Sequence record: OR769032.1 | Length of the DNA: 64,000 bases | Source: Escherichia phage JoYop | Reading direction: 5' to 3' (one strand) | Part shown: positions 5,117 through 63,438 of the stretch, in pieces | Numbering within the stretch: position 1 is the first letter of the stretch | Layout: each line of letters begins with the position of its first letter | The notes under the pieces: generated by a model | Told to the model about the DNA's origin: nothing | The model's database searches: none | What the model saw: the letters and a program-made list of their open reading frames with translations, nothing else | Translations under genes and position numbers: made by a program

Positions 5117-5187
5117 TTTCTAATCTCCGTAATTCTGTATCAGTAGTTGATAGTTGTATAGTACCACAGTATGCTTTGGTTGTAAAC
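5117..5187 (-). promoter_or_regulatory. early promoter plus conserved leader cassette upstream of motA
   Basis: Coding strand GTTTACA-17 bp-TACTAT followed by leader ACAACTATCAACT...GGAG...ATG; contains the 20-mer gttgatagttgtatagtacc (5146-5165). Confidence 0.6.
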
Positions 5188-55753: not shown

Positions 55754-56011
55754 TTATTCCTTAATTCCTAGTACTTGTTTAAAAGTCTCATCGTAATCAA
55801 GACTTTGGCCCGTTTGTTCTTTATGTTTGTATATAATATCACTTACTTCTGATAGCATATTTTTATATGAACGAGTTAAAGCAGATTTAAGAACGCTGTA
55901 TCTATCAGGAAATTTACCATGTTCATTATAATAAGCTATTGCTAATTCACGGACTGCCTTTTCAGCAGCCTCCATATATTCTTTACGCTTGGTCATTTTC
56001 TTCTCGGTCAA
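55754..56011 (-). CDS. hypothetical protein (85 aa)
   Basis: Track ORF. Confidence 0.5.
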
Positions 56012-56300
56012 ATCGGTGTTTACAATGGCGACATTTATAACGAAGATTACTATTCTGCCAATGAACTAATTGTACCTGTTCAGTGCCGCACTTTGGGCAA
56101 TTAGGAATATTCTTAGAAGCTCTTTCACGTCGTTCAACCATGGCCATAATAGCATCCCATGCTGGAGGTTTAAAATCTAAATCGTCGCAACCATGAATCT
56201 TTCCACGCATTTCCATATCATCTTCCTCACCAGCCATAATAATTTTAATTAAACTGGAATTACTTGAAGCTGCGATGTCTTCTAATAAACGCTTTTTCAT
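55983..56300 (-). CDS. hypothetical zinc-ribbon protein (105 aa)
   Basis: C-terminal CPKCG...CRHCKHRF. Confidence 0.5.
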
Positions 56301-57226
56301 TTCAATACCTCGATGGCATTACGTAAACCATTTGCTTTGGCGGTTAAAGCCTTAAGAACTTTAGTATGCTCTTCAATTTGTTTTTCAACTTCAGCCAAAC
56401 GTATATTGAGATATTCACGTTCTTCGCTCAGATTATCAACCTTTTCTACTTTAGGTTCTTTTATAACTGACTTATATGTATTAGGGTTCTTCAGTTTAAT
56501 TAGAATGCGTGAACTATATAACATTGAACCATTATCTTCGGTTTCGTCATACATTTCTACTACGTCCATGATTTTTAACATCATGCGGAGTTTATAAGAC
56601 AACGAACGAATAGTTTTGTTGTGCTTATTAATTTCTCTAGAGTTCATGGTGCCGAGATTACGTGAGTAATAATAAGGAACCTGGATATTAATTAATACTG
56701 ATGAACCACCTGGCTTGTGTGTTACTTCATCAGCAATAACCCAGTCCTTAACATGAACTGTATTTGTACGATCATCGCCCGCGGTGAACAGTTTGCGAGC
56801 ATGCTTAAAAAGCATATTCACTTGGTCATTGAATTGGCAAGCAAATTTATCAGCAAATTTGGTTTCAGGAATGGTAGAAAACCAATCAGCCAAATGAGTC
56901 TTTTTAACATCATTAACAATAGTAAATTCAACCAAATCGGTTATAGATGTCTCAGATTTAATGAAGCTCGGCTTCATAAAGTTTTTAATGTTCTCATGAG
57001 CTACAGTAGAAGATAACATACGAGAACGTTTAAACCATTCAAGCAAATTGCCTAACGAATGAGAATAAGCGTTTTGAGTATCTTTACAGATATGATTTTC
57101 CTGTCCAACATATTGAAGGAAATCACGAAGAATATTATTAACTACTGCTCTGTGTCCTATCTGATAATTGCGATGTTTAGTAATAAGACTGTCAAAATAA
57201 TCAATATAATGTTTACGAGTTTTCAT
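56297..57226 (-). CDS. hypothetical protein (309 aa) with C-terminal coiled coil; member A of tandem family
   Basis: Track ORF; heptad-like C-terminus [42 protein letters not shown]. Confidence 0.6.
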   Translation of the reverse strand: MKTRKHYIDYFDSLITKHRNYQIGHRAVVNNILRDFLQYVGQENHICKDTQNAYSHSLGNLLEWFKRSRMLSSTVAHENIKNFMKPSFIKSETSITDLVEFTIVNDVKKTHLADWFSTIPETKFADKFACQFNDQVNMLFKHARKLFTAGDDRTNTVHVKDWVIADEVTHKPGGSSVLINIQVPYYYSRNLGTMNSREINKHNKTIRSLSYKLRMMLKIMDVVEMYDETEDNGSMLYSSRILIKLKNPNTYKSVIKEPKVEKVDNLSEEREYLNIRLAEVEKQIEEHTKVLKALTAKANGLRNAIEVLK

Positions 57227-57280
57227 ATTCTTCTCACTTAGTTAATGATTTATGCTCCAAGCCATCCTTGGCTTTAAATT

Positions 57281-58282
57281 TTACTTAATTAACTGTAAAG
57301 CTTGTTCAAGACGATCAAGACGATTAACAGATTCTTCCCAAATCCTTTTAGCCTGTTCATATTCTTTCTGTGCTTTATTAGAAATTTCTAGAACTTCTTT
57401 ATAAGCTTTTTCTAGTGCAATAACTTCTGGACGAATTTCTACCGGTTCAGGTGAATCATCAAGACATTCTATTAGTTCCTCAAGAGTAGTTTCTTCTTTA
57501 GGAGTATTCACAATTTCCTCGCATTTTTGTTGATAAATTTCTTTATCAGTCGGTGAGTACGCGCATTTCACTTCACGAAGGCTAATTATAATTTTATATC
57601 CTTCCCAACCACATATATTTTTGAAAGGATACGTATGAATACTTTTTACAGTTTCCATACAGCCCAAAGCCGCCTCTAACTGATGGGTTATAGTACTAGC
57701 AATTGAGAAAAATTTATTAATATTCTTTTGGTTAACTTCCGGTGTAAAAAATCCATAATTCACAAAAATAGCTACTTTATTTTTATCAAGCTCATATTCT
57801 TTTACGATAATCATATCAGAAGCTAAAGGATGAATTTGACGATAATCACCATAACATAATTTAGAAGCTGATTTTAAAATTTGTCCTTTAAAAAGTCTGA
57901 AATTACTAATCCAACGACGAGTAAAAATATTCTCAGGGTCTTCTTTATTATTAAGATGATAAGAATTAACATCACCGAACCAATTATATCCTACTACATC
58001 TTTGGTTCGTTTAATTTCTTTCCCAAATTTACCAAAAATATCCCGATTAACCAAATATGAAAGAAGACGAGACCCTTTAAAGGTTTCCTTAATATCATCT
58101 TTATCTACACGGCTAGAAATTTTACAAACTTCATGAATAAATTTACTTGAAGAAACTATACTTGCATCAATACTATTGAGCCATTGATTGATAATAGAAA
58201 GAACACCGTGATGACTAGACATGGGTTTAACTTTATCATCAATAACGCTATTGAATGATTTGATATATTCGTTACGAGTCAT
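57281..58282 (-). CDS. hypothetical protein (334 aa) with C-terminal coiled coil; member B
   Basis: Track ORF 57281..58333 trimmed to the ATG after SD GAGGAGATT (MTRNEYIKSF...). Confidence 0.6.
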   Translation of the reverse strand: MTRNEYIKSFNSVIDDKVKPMSSHHGVLSIINQWLNSIDASIVSSSKFIHEVCKISSRVDKDDIKETFKGSRLLSYLVNRDIFGKFGKEIKRTKDVVGYNWFGDVNSYHLNNKEDPENIFTRRWISNFRLFKGQILKSASKLCYGDYRQIHPLASDMIIVKEYELDKNKVAIFVNYGFFTPEVNQKNINKFFSIASTITHQLEAALGCMETVKSIHTYPFKNICGWEGYKIIISLREVKCAYSPTDKEIYQQKCEEIVNTPKEETTLEELIECLDDSPEPVEIRPEVIALEKAYKEVLEISNKAQKEYEQAKRIWEESVNRLDRLEQALQLIK

Positions 58283-58310
58283 AATAATCTCCTCAGTAGA
58301 AAGTAAGAAC

Positions 58311-58340
58311 ATTATACCACATTCTTGTGGCAAAGTAAAC
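58311..58340 (-). promoter_or_regulatory. early promoter (GTTTAC ... TGTGGTATAAT) inside the tandem family
   Basis: Coding strand GTTTACTTTGCCACAAGAATGTGGTATAAT; -35 overlaps the stop of member C. Confidence 0.55.
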
Positions 58341-59347
58341 TAGTTCAGTGCATTTAGTGCATTGTTCAGTTTAGAACGTTGTTTTGTCAGATTTTGAACC
58401 CTTGACTGTGCTTGTTCTAACACCTTTTCAGCTTCTAACATTTCATTAGTTGCTTTAACAAGTTCATCATCTACTGCTTTAAGAGACTTCTCAATCGCAT
58501 CGGCGTGCCATTTTTCTACAGGTTTAAAATTTGAATTTTCAGTAGGAAGAAAACTCACTTTATTAAGTTTCCATGCATCTGTACTACTTGAACTGTACAT
58601 CCAACATTTAGGATCGTTGGATGAGCGATTAGTTTGAGGTTCAGGTTTTTTCTCTTGCGTAACTTCATCCTTTCTCAAATAATCATATTTAAATGAAACG
58701 ACCATATCAAGTTCATATGTTGTCGTATCTAATTTAAATCGTTCGAAATGCTGCGAAATCTTAGACTGAACAGCGGAAACAACATCCATATACTTAAATG
58801 CTTCTGTCAATTGTGATTTAAGGCATTCACAGATTGAAAGAGAATTTTTTGTATTAGGTTTAAAGCTAATTCGTGCAGTTCTGTTATTTTCTTTTAATGG
58901 TCTTACTTCCATCTGAAGAGTATAACCATCAAATTTCAGATTCTTTAAGTTAATGTCAGAGCCTTTTAATCGACTAGCTGTGGACAAAATTTGCTTTAGT
59001 TGTTTACGAAATAGAGCAATAAATCTCCATTCAATACGATAATGATTTGGATTGAAAAATCCAGATGATAAATCGACCTTACTTTGACCAACGCCTTGAA
59101 CAAATAGAGGATTTTTATAATCAATAGTTTTACAGAAATCAACGAGTTGTTCACGAGCAGTCATTTGTGTAATATACCCCGCTTTACTAAAATGACGTAA
59201 CCATTCACTGCTATTCAGATGCTTAAAGGCATGAATGGAACAATTAACTTTACCAAGGTCTAAATTATTTTCGCACAAAAATGTCATAACATCACGAGTA
59301 TAACTGGCATTACGAACAATATCTTCAATTTGAGAACGAGTTTTCAT
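58340..59347 (-). CDS. hypothetical protein (335 aa) with C-terminal coiled coil; member C
   Basis: Track ORF; C-terminus ...DELVKATNEMLEAEKVLEQAQSRVQNLTKQRSKLNNALNALN. Confidence 0.6.
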   Translation of the reverse strand: MKTRSQIEDIVRNASYTRDVMTFLCENNLDLGKVNCSIHAFKHLNSSEWLRHFSKAGYITQMTAREQLVDFCKTIDYKNPLFVQGVGQSKVDLSSGFFNPNHYRIEWRFIALFRKQLKQILSTASRLKGSDINLKNLKFDGYTLQMEVRPLKENNRTARISFKPNTKNSLSICECLKSQLTEAFKYMDVVSAVQSKISQHFERFKLDTTTYELDMVVSFKYDYLRKDEVTQEKKPEPQTNRSSNDPKCWMYSSSSTDAWKLNKVSFLPTENSNFKPVEKWHADAIEKSLKAVDDELVKATNEMLEAEKVLEQAQSRVQNLTKQRSKLNNALNALN

Positions 59348-59355
59348 AGTATTCC

Positions 59356-60246
59356 TTAAGATTTAAGTAAATCAACAATTTTAATTAACTTTTCACGCTC
59401 AGATTTAGCTTTACTACTCAATCCAGATAGTCTAAAAATTTCATCATCATATTGTTGAATAGAAATATTCAGTTCTTCAATCTGTTTATTAAAATAATCA
59501 ATTTGTTCAGAATGTTTTTCGTTACTACGAACTGGTACAGGTTTTGTAGGCAATTCAATTGAACTGGATTCATCCGGGCGATAAATTAAAATACAACTTG
59601 AACCAATTGGGCATTTTGCACCAGATGAATATTCTAATGTTCCAGCTTCTTTTAAAACTTCAAAAGCTAAGCAGAGATGATGCCCCATATTAACATAATC
59701 TGTAGAGCGAGCTCTAATGTAATAATCAATTCCACGAGTACTAAATTTAAAGCATTTAAGGTCTTCTGTATTATTAGTCTTAAAAATCATTTGTTTATCT
59801 AGACCTTTAGCCAATCGAGCGCCTAATGCTAATAATCGTCGTTGATTTTCCCACAAATCTGTAATCATTTGATCGAATGATAATTTCGGCATTAGTCGAC
59901 CATAAAGGTCATATCCTTTATTATAATTGCGAAGGATTTCACTCGCGTTAATACGAGACAATGCTCCAATTTTATTAAGGGCTTTCATAATGCGATTAGA
60001 TAAACTCATTCCAGACCCATTTGTTCGCTGTAAATGTTTTTCTAATCCAAATCCAATATCAATTTTAAATTTATCTAAAATTTCAGCATGAACATCTCTG
60101 TCAATAACATTCAAATCCAAAGTTGGGTTAAATCTATGAAAAAATTTATCTGGCTCTCCACGACGAAATACAGTCCATTCATTCATCATTTTTTTATTAA
60201 CTAAAGATTTAATTACTGCATTGACATTATTAATTACTACTGACAT
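59356..60246 (-). CDS. hypothetical protein (~296 aa) with C-terminal coiled coil; member D
   Basis: Track ORF trimmed to the ATG after SD GAGGAAAAT (MSVVINNVNAV...). Confidence 0.55.
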   Translation of the reverse strand: MSVVINNVNAVIKSLVNKKMMNEWTVFRRGEPDKFFHRFNPTLDLNVIDRDVHAEILDKFKIDIGFGLEKHLQRTNGSGMSLSNRIMKALNKIGALSRINASEILRNYNKGYDLYGRLMPKLSFDQMITDLWENQRRLLALGARLAKGLDKQMIFKTNNTEDLKCFKFSTRGIDYYIRARSTDYVNMGHHLCLAFEVLKEAGTLEYSSGAKCPIGSSCILIYRPDESSSIELPTKPVPVRSNEKHSEQIDYFNKQIEELNISIQQYDDEIFRLSGLSSKAKSEREKLIKIVDLLKS

Positions 60247-60253
60247 ATTTTCC

Positions 60254-60661
60254 TCACTCAATTTCAATTTTACTAAATACACAGAATATGATTGAACAGA
60301 CTACATAAGCACCACACACAGATTGAACTAATACCATCCCAAAGAACCAAACAATATTATCAAACAGTGTCTGTTTTACGTCGAAAGGACGTAAACTTAC
60401 AGTAATATTATCACCTTTTTCTATTGAAGAATACATCTCTGGGGAAATATATTCACTAAATCTATAACCGTCTTTGAGTTCATATACGGCAATAAACGAT
60501 AAACTAGACCCTTTTCCTTGTGTTCCTGTAATAGTATTAACTACAGTAACATCATAATCTTTATAATGCATATAATCATTAATAGCATAATAACCATATG
60601 CAACTACTATACATAAACAACATATCAATAAATTCAATCTTTTAATTATCAACTGTTTCAT
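60254..60661 (-). CDS. hypothetical membrane protein (135 aa)
   Basis: Track ORF; N- and C-terminal hydrophobic segments. Confidence 0.55.
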   Translation of the reverse strand: MKQLIIKRLNLLICCLCIVVAYGYYAINDYMHYKDYDVTVVNTITGTQGKGSSLSFIAVYELKDGYRFSEYISPEMYSSIEKGDNITVSLRPFDVKQTLFDNIVWFFGMVLVQSVCGAYVVCSIIFCVFSKIEIE

Positions 60662-60716
60662 AATAATCTCAATTAAAAGGGCTTAGAACCATTATACCAT
60701 CCTTGGTATAAAGCGG

Positions 60717-61244
60717 TTATGCGAGTACCGTCTTTAACCGTTCTTCAAACTTCCGAAGAGTATTTTGGCGTTCAGCTCTTTGCTTTTTGTAAGTTTCAAT
60801 ACGCTCTGAAATGAGAGTGTATCGTTCATTCACTGATTCTTTCATAAAATCAGGAATTTCACGAGAAGCTTTAATCTCGTCAAATTTATCAATAACAGCT
60901 TGCTCTTCAGCAATTAAGTTATCATACATTAAAATATCTTTCTTGATGAACTCAATATCTTCTTGAGTTACACGAGATAATTTAGATGCTTTATCCTTTT
61001 TGTACTGTTCGTTAGTATCACGAGACCAGTGTAATGTACGATTTTTATTCGTATTTTTGTAAATTTCTACAATACCAATCTCATCAATAATAACGATCCA
61101 ATTCCAACGGGATTTGTAAATCTGTCCTCCATCAACCGTAATTTCACCTCCGATTGAGATGTCATTAAAGAACTTGCTTTGTGCTTCTGACTTAAATTTA
61201 CCATCGTTGTAATTTACCAGGTTGAAAATATCTTTAGCATTCAT
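60717..61244 (-). CDS. hypothetical protein (175 aa)
   Basis: Track ORF 60717..61304 trimmed to the ATG after leader GGAGGAACAGAAA (MNAKDIFNLVNYNDG...). Confidence 0.55.
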   Translation of the reverse strand: MNAKDIFNLVNYNDGKFKSEAQSKFFNDISIGGEITVDGGQIYKSRWNWIVIIDEIGIVEIYKNTNKNRTLHWSRDTNEQYKKDKASKLSRVTQEDIEFIKKDILMYDNLIAEEQAVIDKFDEIKASREIPDFMKESVNERYTLISERIETYKKQRAERQNTLRKFEERLKTVLA

Positions 61245-61302
61245 TTTCTGTTCCTCCGTAGTTGATAGTTGTATAGTACCACAGAGGAACAGTCTTGTAA
61301 AC
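61242..61302 (-). promoter_or_regulatory. early promoter plus leader cassette (type B copy 2)
   Basis: 61 bp identical to 8253..8313. Confidence 0.6.
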
Positions 61303-61689: not shown

Positions 61690-62409
61690 TTACGATTCTT
61701 CTAAATGTCTTTTCTGAAAAGTTGATACCATACTACGATATGGTTCATTTGGATACCCGTGTTTTATAGCTTCCTTTGTAAATTTTCTCCATCCATATTT
61801 GGTTTCTTTCCAAAGCTCGAATAATTCATCTTCATATTGCCATATAGTTAAATGAGAACGCTTTGCAGCTTTAATTCCATTAATGTGCTTTTCTTTTACT
61901 GTAGGATTGCTTAGTGTCTTTTTAATAATATTACTAACTTTTCTAACAAAAGCTGGGTCCTTATATCGTTGTGAAGTTTTTATTGAAGTGTTTAATTTAG
62001 CTTCCGGCGTGGATGTGACCTCTTTCATCTTTTTCTTCATATGCTGTATATGATTAGGATTTTTCCATAAATTTATAGAATGCTTTTTACATTTTATCCT
62101 AGTTTCATCTGCAACCTTTCCTCCTTCACCCCCATATGACAGGTTAACACAGTTTTTTCCATATTTCAATTTACCTGCCATGATATATAATATTTCAGCT
62201 TGTACCATTTTATCATAATTATCAAAAACTTCTAAAACCGTTTTTGATAATATGTGGTCATTTGACACTTTTACACGTTCTATATAATTTCCACTACCAA
62301 CATATGAATCATTGATGTTATTAGTTATATGTCGACCATAATAGTATTTCTTAATACCTGTCTTTAAATTTAATATTTCAGTTTTATAGATAGTAAAATA
62401 TTTTTTCAT
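61690..62409 (-). CDS. GIY-YIG-like nuclease domain protein (239 aa); possible Seg-type endonuclease
   Basis: N-terminal TIYKTEILNLKTGIKKYYYGRH...YVGSG resembles GIY-(10-11)-YIG; basic C-terminal half with repeated K/S/N motifs; start overlaps ATPase stop (ATGA). Confidence 0.4.
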   Translation of the reverse strand: MKKYFTIYKTEILNLKTGIKKYYYGRHITNNINDSYVGSGNYIERVKVSNDHILSKTVLEVFDNYDKMVQAEILYIMAGKLKYGKNCVNLSYGGEGGKVADETRIKCKKHSINLWKNPNHIQHMKKKMKEVTSTPEAKLNTSIKTSQRYKDPAFVRKVSNIIKKTLSNPTVKEKHINGIKAAKRSHLTIWQYEDELFELWKETKYGWRKFTKEAIKHGYPNEPYRSMVSTFQKRHLEES

Positions 62410-63374
62410 TTTAATAATACCGTTTCAGCAATTTCTTCCCAATGGTTTTTGTCGGTCATAATAAAGTCAGCAAGATAAAGAGCAGTACGCAGTGAAACAT
62501 TGCGTAAACGATTAACATTAACTTTCATCCATGATAATGCTTTATAAGTTTCTTCATCAGAAAGACCACGTTTTTGCATCATGTCAGTTGAAAGAATAAC
62601 ATCTTCAACCCTGACCATAATTTCTTCATTAGTGTGAACACCTAAATCTAAATAAACTGAGCGGGACACTAATGCTTGTAAATGTGGAGCAAGTTTAGTT
62701 CCACGGTCTAATTCACGGTCAATGTCAACGTTTGTGATAAAAACAATCGTTCCTTTAAATTCAAACTCACGCTCAATGCCTTTTTCTTCTAAGTAAGAAG
62801 ATGCAGTGCTCCAGCAGACTTTACGGGTCTCTCCAGTGTCCAGAGCAGCTTTTAGAAGATTAAGAATGTCCATATCAGAGAAAACATCCACATCATCAAT
62901 TAAAAGGACAGAATTCTCTTCACGATTATTCCAGAGCTGCTCATAAAGACCGATACCAGAGATTTTACCATTAATGCTTTTATATTCAATGTATCCAACA
63001 TCATTTGCTTTATTTAAAGCTTTATCTAAAGAATACGTTTTACCAATACCTGCCGCACCAGAGATAATTAATGAACGAATGTTTCCGTTAATAATACCAT
63101 TCGTCATCATTCCCATAACATTAAATCTTTTATTAATGCGGGTTTTCATATCTTCATATGATTCTTTAACTTCTTCAACTTTTACACCATCATATGAAAT
63201 ATCTGATTTGTAAACCCAAACACCGCGACGCTTACCGTCAATTTCAACAAAAACTTTACCATCTCCTTGTGCATCTACCGGAGCATTATCTGGGAACCAT
63301 TCACCTAAGAGCTCAAAAGTTCCAGAGATTTCTTTACCGAAGTAGATACCCTTATTGATAGTTACAGTTTTCAT
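62406..63374 (-). CDS. P-loop NTPase (AAA+-like), 322 aa
   Basis: Track ORF trimmed to the ATG after leader GGAGAACAAA; Walker A GAAGIGKT, Walker B VLLIDDVD. Confidence 0.6.
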   Translation of the reverse strand: MKTVTINKGIYFGKEISGTFELLGEWFPDNAPVDAQGDGKVFVEIDGKRRGVWVYKSDISYDGVKVEEVKESYEDMKTRINKRFNVMGMMTNGIINGNIRSLIISGAAGIGKTYSLDKALNKANDVGYIEYKSINGKISGIGLYEQLWNNREENSVLLIDDVDVFSDMDILNLLKAALDTGETRKVCWSTASSYLEEKGIEREFEFKGTIVFITNVDIDRELDRGTKLAPHLQALVSRSVYLDLGVHTNEEIMVRVEDVILSTDMMQKRGLSDEETYKALSWMKVNVNRLRNVSLRTALYLADFIMTDKNHWEEIAETVLLK

Positions 63375-63438
63375 TTTGTTCTCCAAATCCGTATCAGTTG
63401 ATAGTTGTATAGTACCATAAAGCTTTATGCTTGTAAAC
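63375..63438 (-). promoter_or_regulatory. early promoter plus leader cassette (type A)
   Basis: Coding strand GTTTACAAGCATAAAGCTTTATGGTACTATACAACTATCAACTGATACGGATTTGGAGAACAAA-ATG. Confidence 0.6.

What the first reader, a model, noticed from the sequence alone, without database searches (positions are those of the whole stretch)
56297..61244. Tandem array of four ~300-aa ORFs with coiled-coil tails, plus membrane and 175-aa ORFs
Four consecutive same-strand ORFs (56297..57226, 57281..58282, 58340..59347, 59356..60246) share architecture: a divergent ~260-aa body and a heptad-like acidic/basic C-terminal ~40 aa. Weak shared internal motifs (YMDVV, IMDVV, CMETV) suggest ancient paralogy. An early promoter sits inside the array, and a membrane protein (60254..60661) and a 175-aa protein with its own cassette follow. 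I could not assign any function; this is the largest block of unassigned coding sequence in the window. Early-expressed accessory arrays in T-even phages often encode host-takeover or anti-defence functions.
Basis: partly seen in the sequence, partly recalled or inferred. Interest (0 to 1): 0.5.

Follow-up and report, generated by a model that had tools for sequence, protein, structure and literature searches.

The report
T4 nrdC.3–nrdC.8 anti-defence gene block
This block is the nrdC.3–nrdC.8 accessory region of a T4-like phage: four diverged copies of one protein family plus two small genes, and because two of the six already have published roles in blocking bacterial immune systems, the other three family members are good untested candidates.

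Summary
The window is a T4-like coliphage (Escherichia phage JoYop). All six ORFs are real and lie on the minus strand. They are the orthologues of T4 nrdC.3, nrdC.4, nrdC.5, nrdC.6, nrdC.7 (a two-helix membrane protein) and nrdC.8 (175 aa).

Paralogy is confirmed, with uneven support:
- nrdC.3 and nrdC.4: clear (HHalign E=1e-10).
- nrdC.5 to those two: profile-profile E=9e-7, far above shuffled controls.
- nrdC.6: linked mainly by predicted fold. It has the same order of structural elements and shares six structural matches among viral proteins.

All four have a variable body, a flexible linker and a conserved C-terminal heptad helix. Similar tandem pairs occupy the same genomic slot in a distant Acinetobacter phage.

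Function is partly published. T4 NrdC.5 overcomes the Dsr1 defence system. The 175-aa ORF is 99.4% identical to Bas37_0203, a reported Druantia III inhibitor. Neighbouring nrdC.1 reportedly inhibits Septu.

I read the block as an early-expressed anti-defence island. NrdC.3, NrdC.4 and NrdC.6 are untested candidate inhibitors. The genes and the type of function are known; joining the four into one family appears to be new. Interest is moderate.

The parts
56297..57226 (-). NrdC.3 orthologue (309 aa), family member A. The most variable member: 62% identical to T4 NrdC.3 and 94% to Bas37_0198.
   Evidence: phrog_1435, 9e-114; three allele classes: 90-98%, ~75%, ~62%
57257..57274 (-). Hairpin AAGCCA-AGGA-TGGCTT in the nrdC.4/nrdC.3 spacer. 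It may be a decayed promoter cassette.
57281..58282 (-). NrdC.4 orthologue (333 aa), family member B. AlphaFold2 model has pLDDT 84.7.
   Evidence: relatives carry PF26897; 90% identical to T4
58311..58339 (-). T4-type early promoter match, TTTACT-N17-TATAAT with upstream TG, just upstream of nrdC.4.
   Evidence: fits the PST/T4 PeSL consensus TTTACW-N17-TAYWAT (PMC4122927)
58340..59347 (-). NrdC.5 orthologue (335 aa; Pfam DUF7235), family member C. T4 NrdC.5 is a published counter-defence factor against Dsr1.
   Evidence: PF23882, 1.3e-108; 87% identical to T4
59356..60246 (-). NrdC.6 orthologue (296 aa), family member D. Linked to the other three mainly by fold. AlphaFold2 model has pLDDT 78.
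   Evidence: phrog_2257; relatives carry PF26899
60254..60661 (-). NrdC.7 orthologue (135 aa), a small protein with two predicted transmembrane segments. Function unknown.
   Evidence: (phrog_2547)
60691..60714 (-). Middle-promoter-like site: MotA-box-like GCTTTA, 12 nt, then TATAAT. It overlaps a hairpin, TATACCA-AGGA-TGGTATA.
   Evidence: identification as a MotA-type promoter is inferred from the T4 consensus
60717..61244 (-). NrdC.8 orthologue (175 aa), 99.4% identical to Bas37_0203, which is a reported Druantia III inhibitor.
   Evidence: (phrog_2274)
61273..61301 (-). Early promoter match, TTTACA-N17-TACTAT, upstream of nrdC.8. It shares the 22-nt sequence TGGTACTATACAACTATCAACT with five other sites in the window.
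55754..55996 (-). NrdC.1 orthologue (80 aa, 98.75% identical to T4 NrdC.1). It lies outside the finding but in the same island. T4 nrdC.1 is a reported Septu inhibitor.

Best explanation
The block is the nrdC.3-nrdC.8 part of the variable region between nrdC and nrdC.10 in T4-type phages. I interpret it as an anti-defence island that is transcribed early or in the middle of infection.

The four ~300-aa ORFs are diverged tandem copies of one protein family. Each has an N-terminal helical domain, an alpha/beta core (hairpin, long helix, hairpin), a disordered linker and a C-terminal amphipathic helix of about 45 residues.

My proposed mechanism is as follows. Each copy is made before late phage proteins appear. 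It assembles through its conserved tail. Its fast-evolving body binds a particular host immune protein and prevents that protein from being triggered or from acting. For NrdC.5 the target is Dsr1, a SIR2 NAD-degrading enzyme whose TPR sensor is set off by the late major capsid protein. The 175-aa NrdC.8 is a separate, unrelated inhibitor, of Druantia III.

Shown here: gene identity, family relationship, shared architecture, promoter matches, allelic variability and dispensability. Taken from papers: the NrdC.5/Dsr1 and Bas37_0203/Druantia III phenotypes. Inferred: direct binding, oligomerisation through the tail, and any anti-defence role for NrdC.3, NrdC.4, NrdC.6 or NrdC.7.
For: Identity and synteny:
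- The window proteins are identical to Escherichia phage JoYop cm3_199 to cm3_202.
- Gene order matches T4, Bas45 and Bas37, with 62-99% identity to T4.

Family relationship:
- A-B: HHalign E=1.3e-10.
- C to A+B: E=9.3e-7, score 53.6 vs 15.5±2.8 for shuffles.
- B and D models have the same element order from mid-protein to the C-terminus and share six BFVD matches at E<1e-3.
- Acinetobacter phage Acj61 has a 330-aa and a 304-aa gene side by side between nrdC and nrdC.10. Their lengths match two of those BFVD matches, and both carry heptad tails.

Published function:
- Expressing T4 nrdC.5 rescues a deletion phage on cells carrying Dsr1 (PMC9391042).
- Bas37_0203 is required against Druantia III, and T4 nrdC.1 against Septu (preprint 10.1101/2025.11.20.689424).
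- Orthology of the window genes: 87%, 99.4% and 98.75% identity.
- Dsr1 is triggered by the major capsid protein (PMC12803255), so an early-made inhibitor would act before the trigger appears.

Signs of an arms race and of dispensability:
- NrdC.3 occurs in three allele classes among near-identical phages.
- Members are present in 553 to 741 phage records.
- Natural deletions exist within the array (ACG-C40; fusion protein P0057).
- The Dhakavirus E33 array has three members.
- Within each family the tail is better conserved than the body.

Early promoter matches lie before nrdC.4 and nrdC.8.
Against: - No biochemical or genetic data exist for NrdC.3, NrdC.4, NrdC.6 or NrdC.7.
- The NrdC.5 result is a plating rescue only. 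Neither binding nor mechanism has been shown, so an indirect effect is possible.
- The Druantia III and Septu results come from a preprint.
- The link of D to the family rests on predicted structures and on shared hits in a library of predicted structures. The sequence signal is marginal.
- No model of NrdC.5 itself was made.
- Profiles built from the tails alone do not link the families significantly. A common origin or common partner for the tails is therefore not shown.
- The window NrdC.5 is only 87% identical to the tested T4 protein.
Confidence: 0.6

Rival explanations
1. The family members are general host-takeover or physiology factors, acting for example on NAD or nucleotide metabolism, transcription or the nucleoid. 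They would not be direct inhibitors of immune proteins, and the NrdC.5 effect on Dsr1 would be indirect.
For: Only a plating rescue is published for NrdC.5. NAD-replenishing pathways are a known indirect route around Dsr1. The genes sit among nucleotide-metabolism genes (nrdC, nrdD, tk).
Against: No enzymatic or DNA-binding domain is detected in any member by Pfam, NCBIfam or PDB sequence searches. Strong allelic variation and frequent loss fit host-specific targets better than a general physiological role. The rescue was specific to Dsr1 in an otherwise permissive K-12 host.
Confidence: 0.15
2. NrdC.6 (ORF D) is not a true paralogue. It would be an unrelated protein that converged on a similar layout of body, linker and helical tail, so the array would hold three paralogues rather than four.
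For: D shows no significant profile-profile similarity to A+B or C. Tail-only profiles do not find D. Pfam treats it as a separate family, PF26899.
Against: From about residue 120 to the end, the order and lengths of predicted elements match B. Six BFVD targets match both B and D with similar E-values. The secondary-structure-aware alignment pairs invariant motifs of both families and exceeds all 40 block shuffles. D also sits in the same tandem array on the same strand.
Confidence: 0.2
3. The proteins are morphogenetic or virion-associated factors related to tail terminator and tail completion proteins.
Confidence: 0.03

Closest known systems
T4 NrdC.5 (Pfam DUF7235), a counter-defence factor against Dsr1 (Srikant, Guegler and Laub, eLife 2022; PMC9391042)
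   Same: The third ORF is its orthologue: 87% identity, the same position in the genome, and a DUF7235 hit at 1.3e-108.
   Different: The window allele has not been tested. The paper does not describe the mechanism, the fold or the relationship to NrdC.3, NrdC.4 and NrdC.6.
Bas37_0203 (the NrdC.8 orthologue of phage KarlGJung), a reported Druantia III inhibitor (HIDEN-SEQ preprint 10.1101/2025.11.20.689424)
   Same: The 175-aa ORF differs from it by one residue (99.4% identity) and occupies the same position after the membrane-protein gene.
   Different: It is not a member of the four-copy family. Its mechanism is unknown, and the result is from a preprint.
DSAD1, the phage inhibitor of DSR2 (PMC10973363, PMC10981675)
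   Same: It offers a working analogy: a phage protein that neutralises a SIR2 NADase whose sensor recognises a late structural protein.
   Different: No sequence or fold relationship was detected. DSAD1 acts on DSR2, which senses the tail tube, whereas Dsr1 senses the capsid protein. Direct binding of NrdC.5 to Dsr1 is only inferred.
T4 'anti-TA island' (dmd, tifA, adfA) and other clustered phage counter-defence genes
   Same: Several small early accessory genes that each counter a different host system are clustered together: here nrdC.1, nrdC.5 and nrdC.8 lie within 5.5 kb.
   Different: This is a different locus with different protein families. Here part of the island arose by tandem duplication of a single family.
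PeSL promoter/stem-loop cassettes of T4-type variable regions (PMC2839356, PMC4122927)
   Same: The promoter matches before nrdC.4, nrdC.8 and nrdC.10 fit TTTACW-N17-TAYWAT and come with hairpins. A 22-nt stretch recurs six times in the window.
   Different: Whether recombination at these cassettes produced the observed deletions was not tested. The junction in the P0057 fusion lies inside coding sequence.
Tail terminator / tail completion proteins (lambda gpU type)
   Different: The resemblance covers one domain at a modest score. These genes also have an extra helical domain and a coiled-coil tail, early rather than late expression signals, and are dispensable. They are not members of that family.

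Membership tests
T4 nrdC.3-nrdC.8 gene block (orthology) | Same gene order between nrdC and nrdC.10, with a reciprocal best match to each T4 gene | tested here: met
   Annotation of T4, Bas45 and Bas37. Identities to T4: 62, 90, 87, 97, 91 and 99%.
Pfam DUF7235 (PF23882, NrdC.5 family) | Score above the Pfam gathering cut-off (30 bits) | tested here: met
   ORF C scores 363.6 bits, E=1.3e-108, over its full length.
PHROG 1435 / Pfam PF26897 (NrdC.3 and NrdC.4 family) | Full-length match to the family profile | tested here: met
   A at 9e-114 and B at 3.5e-166 against phrog_1435. All relatives of B carry PF26897. PF26897 is not in the local Pfam copy, so it was not scored directly.
PHROG 2257 / Pfam PF26899 (NrdC.6 family) | Full-length match to the family profile | tested here: met
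   D at 1e-149 against phrog_2257. Its relatives carry PF26899.
Proposed NrdC.3-6 superfamily | Significant profile-profile similarity between the member families | tested here: met
   Met for A-B (E=1.3e-10) and for C vs A+B (E=9.3e-7, with shuffle control).
Proposed NrdC.3-6 superfamily | NrdC.6 shares the fold of the other members | tested here: inconclusive
   Supported by matching element order and by six shared BFVD matches. The sequence signal is marginal. No direct superposition was possible, and NrdC.5 and NrdC.3 were not modelled.
Dsr1 inhibitors (NrdC.5 type) | Restores phage growth on cells expressing Dsr1 | not testable with these tools
   Shown for T4 NrdC.5 only (PMC9391042). 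The window allele is 87% identical.
Druantia III inhibitor (Bas37_0203 type) | Near-identity to the tested protein, and required on Druantia III hosts | tested here: met
   The sequence criterion is met: 99.4% identity over 175 aa. The activity itself cannot be tested here (preprint).
Coiled-coil proteins | A long C-terminal helix with heptad spacing of hydrophobic residues | tested here: met
   Heptad score and modelled helices. The oligomeric state was not tested.
Tail terminator / tail completion proteins | Late gene in the tail module that forms the ring ending the tail tube | tested here: not met
Thioredoxin (the label carried by these genes in many GenBank records) | Thioredoxin-fold domain | tested here: not met
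   No thioredoxin or glutaredoxin family hit for any of the six proteins. The label appears in records listed and is evidently carried over from the neighbouring nrdC gene name.
PeSL regulatory cassettes | TTTACW-N17-TAYWAT promoter with an associated stem-loop | tested here: met
   Matches before nrdC.4, nrdC.8 and nrdC.10, with the consensus taken from PMC4122927. Hairpins were found, but only the nrdC.5/nrdC.4 spacer folds better than shuffles (z=-2.7).

The most novel reading that the evidence does not exclude
NrdC.3-6 could be a modular repertoire of immune-receptor blockers. A conserved assembling tail would carry a fast-evolving body that imitates surfaces of conserved phage structural proteins. 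Each tandem copy would then act as a non-activating decoy for a different host pattern-recognition receptor, such as the TPR sensors of the Dsr1/Avs7 type. New specificities would arise through duplication, allele exchange and loss within the array. The tail-terminator-like core of NrdC.4 and the capsid-sensing target of NrdC.5 are compatible with this idea but do not demonstrate it.
Probability: 0.15. Interest if true: 0.75.

Novelty: new member of a known kind. Interest (0 to 1): 0.4.

Why it matters
T4 is the best-studied phage, yet most of its accessory genes still have no known function. NrdC.5 already has an anti-defence phenotype. If NrdC.3, NrdC.4 and NrdC.6 are its diverged copies, that gives three specific, testable candidates for new immune-evasion proteins. 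It would also be an example of counter-defence genes diversifying by tandem duplication, with a conserved tail and a variable body. The same architecture in the same genomic slot in a distant Acinetobacter phage suggests the arrangement is old and widespread among T4-like phages. The analysis also corrects the 'thioredoxin' or 'nucleotide reductase' label that these genes carry in many database records and in at least one paper.

Tried and rejected
- **Weak family hits.** Pfam and NCBIfam scans gave only sub-threshold hits for A, B and D: PHL domain (E=0.0014), MksE (0.067), the N-terminal SAM-like domain of phage integrases/XerD (0.13 in Pfam, 0.0027 in NCBIfam) and BipA_C. All are far below the curated cut-offs and were rejected as leads.
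- **PDB by sequence.** Profile searches for B, C, D and NrdC.8 found nothing meaningful.
- **Tail-only profiles.** These tested whether the C-terminal helices share an origin across families. The best non-self hits were other array members for the C tail (A, E=0.058) and the B tail (C, E=1.2). Nothing was significant, and D and NrdC.8 were not found. The shared terminal motif I saw by eye (R-x-K/R-L-x-x-A-L/I-x-x-L-K) is therefore not supported statistically.
- **Body swapping.** I suspected that phages keeping only a tail segment had swapped in a new body. The one case examined in a genome record (ACG-C40) was a plain deletion.
- **Cluster artefact.** The 90%-identity cluster table places NrdC.4 and NrdC.5 in one cluster. 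BLAST shows no similarity, so this is an artefact.
- **Exhaustive NrdC.5 search.** The profile search found only 13 proteins and no link to other families by itself. It helped only after three divergent hits were added to the profile.
- **Other paralogues.** None were found elsewhere in the window.
- One look-up of the HIDEN-SEQ supplementary files timed out. Cluster members could not be used for structure prediction.
- **Caps.** Fold-search and structure-prediction limits were reached before NrdC.5 or NrdC.3 could be modelled.

Full report
**What the window is.** The region's DNA matches more than 700 T4-like phage genomes, with 97% identity to Escherichia phage PaulHMueller. The four large proteins are exact matches to Escherichia phage JoYop cm3_199 to cm3_202. 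Flanking genes are the T4 endonuclease VII and NrdC orthologues. Comparison with the annotated T4, Bas45 and Bas37 genomes assigns the ORFs as follows:

| Window coordinates (minus strand) | T4 gene | Identity to T4 protein |
|---|---|---|
| 56297-57226 | nrdC.3 | 62% |
| 57281-58282 | nrdC.4 | 90% |
| 58340-59347 | nrdC.5 | 87% |
| 59356-60246 | nrdC.6 | 97% |
| 60254-60661 | nrdC.7 | 91% |
| 60717-61244 | nrdC.8 | 99% |

**Check of the observation.** All ORFs exist as described.
- Each of the four large proteins ends in a charged, heptad-patterned segment.
- AlphaFold2 models of NrdC.4 (pLDDT 84.7) and NrdC.6 (pLDDT 78) show a long terminal helix after a disordered linker.
- NrdC.7 has two hydrophobic segments.
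- A T4-type early promoter match (TTTACT-N17-TATAAT, with upstream TG) lies between nrdC.5 and nrdC.4. A second (TTTACA-N17-TACTAT) precedes nrdC.8, and a MotA-box-like site precedes nrdC.7.
- The two early matches fit the published consensus for promoter/stem-loop cassettes of T4/PST-type phages (PMC4122927).

**Are the four paralogues?**
- NrdC.3 and NrdC.4 clearly are: BLASTP E=5e-7, HHalign E=1.3e-10, and one shared PHROG.
- NrdC.5 has a shallow family. An exhaustive profile search of 1.84 billion representative proteins found only 13 proteins. Adding three divergent hits to the profile gave a colinear 253-column alignment to the NrdC.3+4 profile at 91% probability and E=9.3e-7. The score was 53.6, against 15.5±2.8 for column shuffles.
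- NrdC.6 shows no significant sequence link, even with secondary structure added (22.9 vs 14.6±2.4, max 21).
- However, the NrdC.6 model has the same succession of elements as NrdC.4 from mid-protein onward: two helices plus a short one, a hairpin, a long helix, a hairpin, a disordered linker and a terminal helix. Six of its eleven significant matches in the viral structure library are also matches of NrdC.4.
- I therefore treat the four as one family. Support is strong for three members and moderate for NrdC.6.
- No further copies exist in the window.

**Distribution and evolution.**
- The structural matches are uncharacterised proteins of 300-370 aa from T4-like phages of Enterobacter, Pectobacterium, Klebsiella, Erwinia, Serratia, Yersinia and Acinetobacter.
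- In Acinetobacter phage Acj61, a 330-aa and a 304-aa gene lie side by side between nrdC and nrdC.10, the same slot as in T4. Their lengths equal those of two of the matches, and both carry heptad tails.
- Dhakavirus E33 has a three-member array that lacks NrdC.3.
- Within Tequatrovirus the members are present in 553 to 741 phage records.
- NrdC.3 occurs in three discrete allele classes, at about 90-98%, 75% and 62% identity to the window copy.
- Natural deletions occur inside the array: ACG-C40 retains only NrdC.6 intact, and protein P0057 is an NrdC.5::NrdC.3 fusion.
- In every family the tail is better conserved than the body.
- These are the features of dispensable, host-specific accessory genes.

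**Function.**
- Srikant et al. showed that a T4 clone with deletions including nrdC.5 cannot infect ECOR17 or K-12 carrying ECOR17 dsr1. Expressing nrdC.5 restores plating (PMC9391042).
- A 2026 preprint reports that the TPR sensor of Dsr1 is triggered by the phage major capsid protein (PMC12803255).
- The HIDEN-SEQ preprint reports bas37_0203 as an inhibitor of Druantia III and T4 nrdC.1 as an inhibitor of Septu.
- I identified Bas37 as phage KarlGJung, MZ501089. bas37_0203 is the nrdC.8 orthologue, and the window's 175-aa ORF differs from it by one residue.
- The window's nrdC.1 orthologue is 98.75% identical to T4's.
- Three genes within 5.5 kb therefore have reported counter-defence roles.

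**Most likely mechanism.** An inhibitor made early could occupy or disable Dsr1 before the late capsid protein appears. By analogy I propose that each family member binds a different host immune protein through its variable body. The conserved tail would provide assembly, or docking to a common partner. This is inference: no binding data exist, and NrdC.3, NrdC.4, NrdC.6 and NrdC.7 are untested.

**Comparison with what is known, and novelty.** The genes themselves are long-known T4 hypothetical genes. Two of the six have published or preprinted anti-defence phenotypes. Pfam and PHROGs keep NrdC.3/4, NrdC.5 and NrdC.6 as three separate families. I found no paper that mentions DUF7235, and none of the seven papers that name nrdC.3 to nrdC.8 discusses a relationship between them in the passages retrieved. 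Joining the four into one family with a shared architecture therefore appears to be new, and it nominates three candidates. This is a modest advance within a known kind of system, and I score interest at 0.4.

**Limits.**
- Only two structure predictions and three fold searches were allowed, so NrdC.5 and NrdC.3 were not modelled and no direct superposition was made.
- The promoter assignments are consensus matches, not measured transcription starts.
- The Druantia, Septu and capsid-trigger results are from preprints.

Noticed in passing
window 61690-62409 (minus strand): A 239-aa homing-endonuclease ORF (phrog_314, 5e-30; no Pfam hit) sits between nrdC.9 and nrdC.10 and overlaps the nrdC.10 stop by 4 nt. 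No gene occupies this position in T4, Bas37 or Bas45, so it looks like a recent mobile insertion.
   Followed up: partly
window minus strand at 5145, 8271, 8758, 36053, 61260, 63396: The 22-nt sequence TGGTACTATACAACTATCAACT (the -10 region plus the start of the leader of an early promoter) occurs six times in the window, including before nrdC.8 and nrdC.10. It is probably the repeated promoter cassette (PeSL type) thought to drive gene shuffling in T4-like phages.
   Followed up: partly
window 57262-57271 and 60697-60706 (minus strand): The 10-mer CCAAGGATGG occurs exactly twice, against 0.01 expected by chance. Each copy forms the core of a hairpin with an AGGA loop, in the nrdC.4/nrdC.3 and nrdC.8/nrdC.7 spacers. 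The nrdC.5/nrdC.4 spacer has a similar hairpin overlapping its -10 box. This may reflect duplication of promoter cassettes together with the genes.
   Followed up: partly
protein P0057; locus L005 4305-4716 (phage ACG-C40): Natural deletions occur inside the array. P0057 fuses NrdC.5 residues 146-267 to NrdC.3 residues 129-309 at a short shared motif. ACG-C40 has lost everything from codon ~71 of nrdC.5 to the tail of nrdC.3.
   Followed up: yes
proteins P0288 (173 aa) and P0294 (157 aa): Two metagenomic proteins carry only the NrdC.5 C-terminal tail (about 50 residues, near-identical) on unrelated N-terminal parts. One of those parts looks membrane-anchored or secreted. These could be real module exchanges or assembly chimeras; their source contigs could not be examined.
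   Followed up: no
window 55754-55996 and 55983-56300 (minus strand): The nrdC.1 orthologue is 98.75% identical to T4 NrdC.1, a reported Septu inhibitor. The nrdC.2 orthologue has weak zinc-ribbon hits around two Cys pairs.
   Followed up: partly
GenBank records listed; paper PMC13275509: Many records label nrdC.3 to nrdC.8 orthologues 'thioredoxin', and one paper treats nrdC.8 as a nucleotide reductase. None of these proteins has a thioredoxin or reductase domain, so the label is carried over from the locus name.
   Followed up: yes
cluster table: The 90%-identity clustering places NrdC.4 proteins (for example JoYop cm3_200) in the same cluster as T4 NrdC.5, although BLAST finds no similarity between them. 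Fusion proteins may bridge the two.
   Followed up: partly
window 62406-63386 (minus strand): The NrdC.10 orthologue has weak P-loop/AAA and STAND-NTPase-like hits around residues 100-200, all below the Pfam cut-offs. A strong terminator-like hairpin followed by an early promoter match lies just upstream, at 63488-63409.
   Followed up: no
locus L006 1229-3938 (Acinetobacter phage Acj61): Acj61 encodes nicotinamide phosphoribosyltransferase next to ribose-phosphate pyrophosphokinase. This gene pair is of the kind described as an NAD-reconstitution counter-defence pathway, and here it lies about 30 kb from the phage's NrdC.3-6-like gene pair.
   Followed up: no
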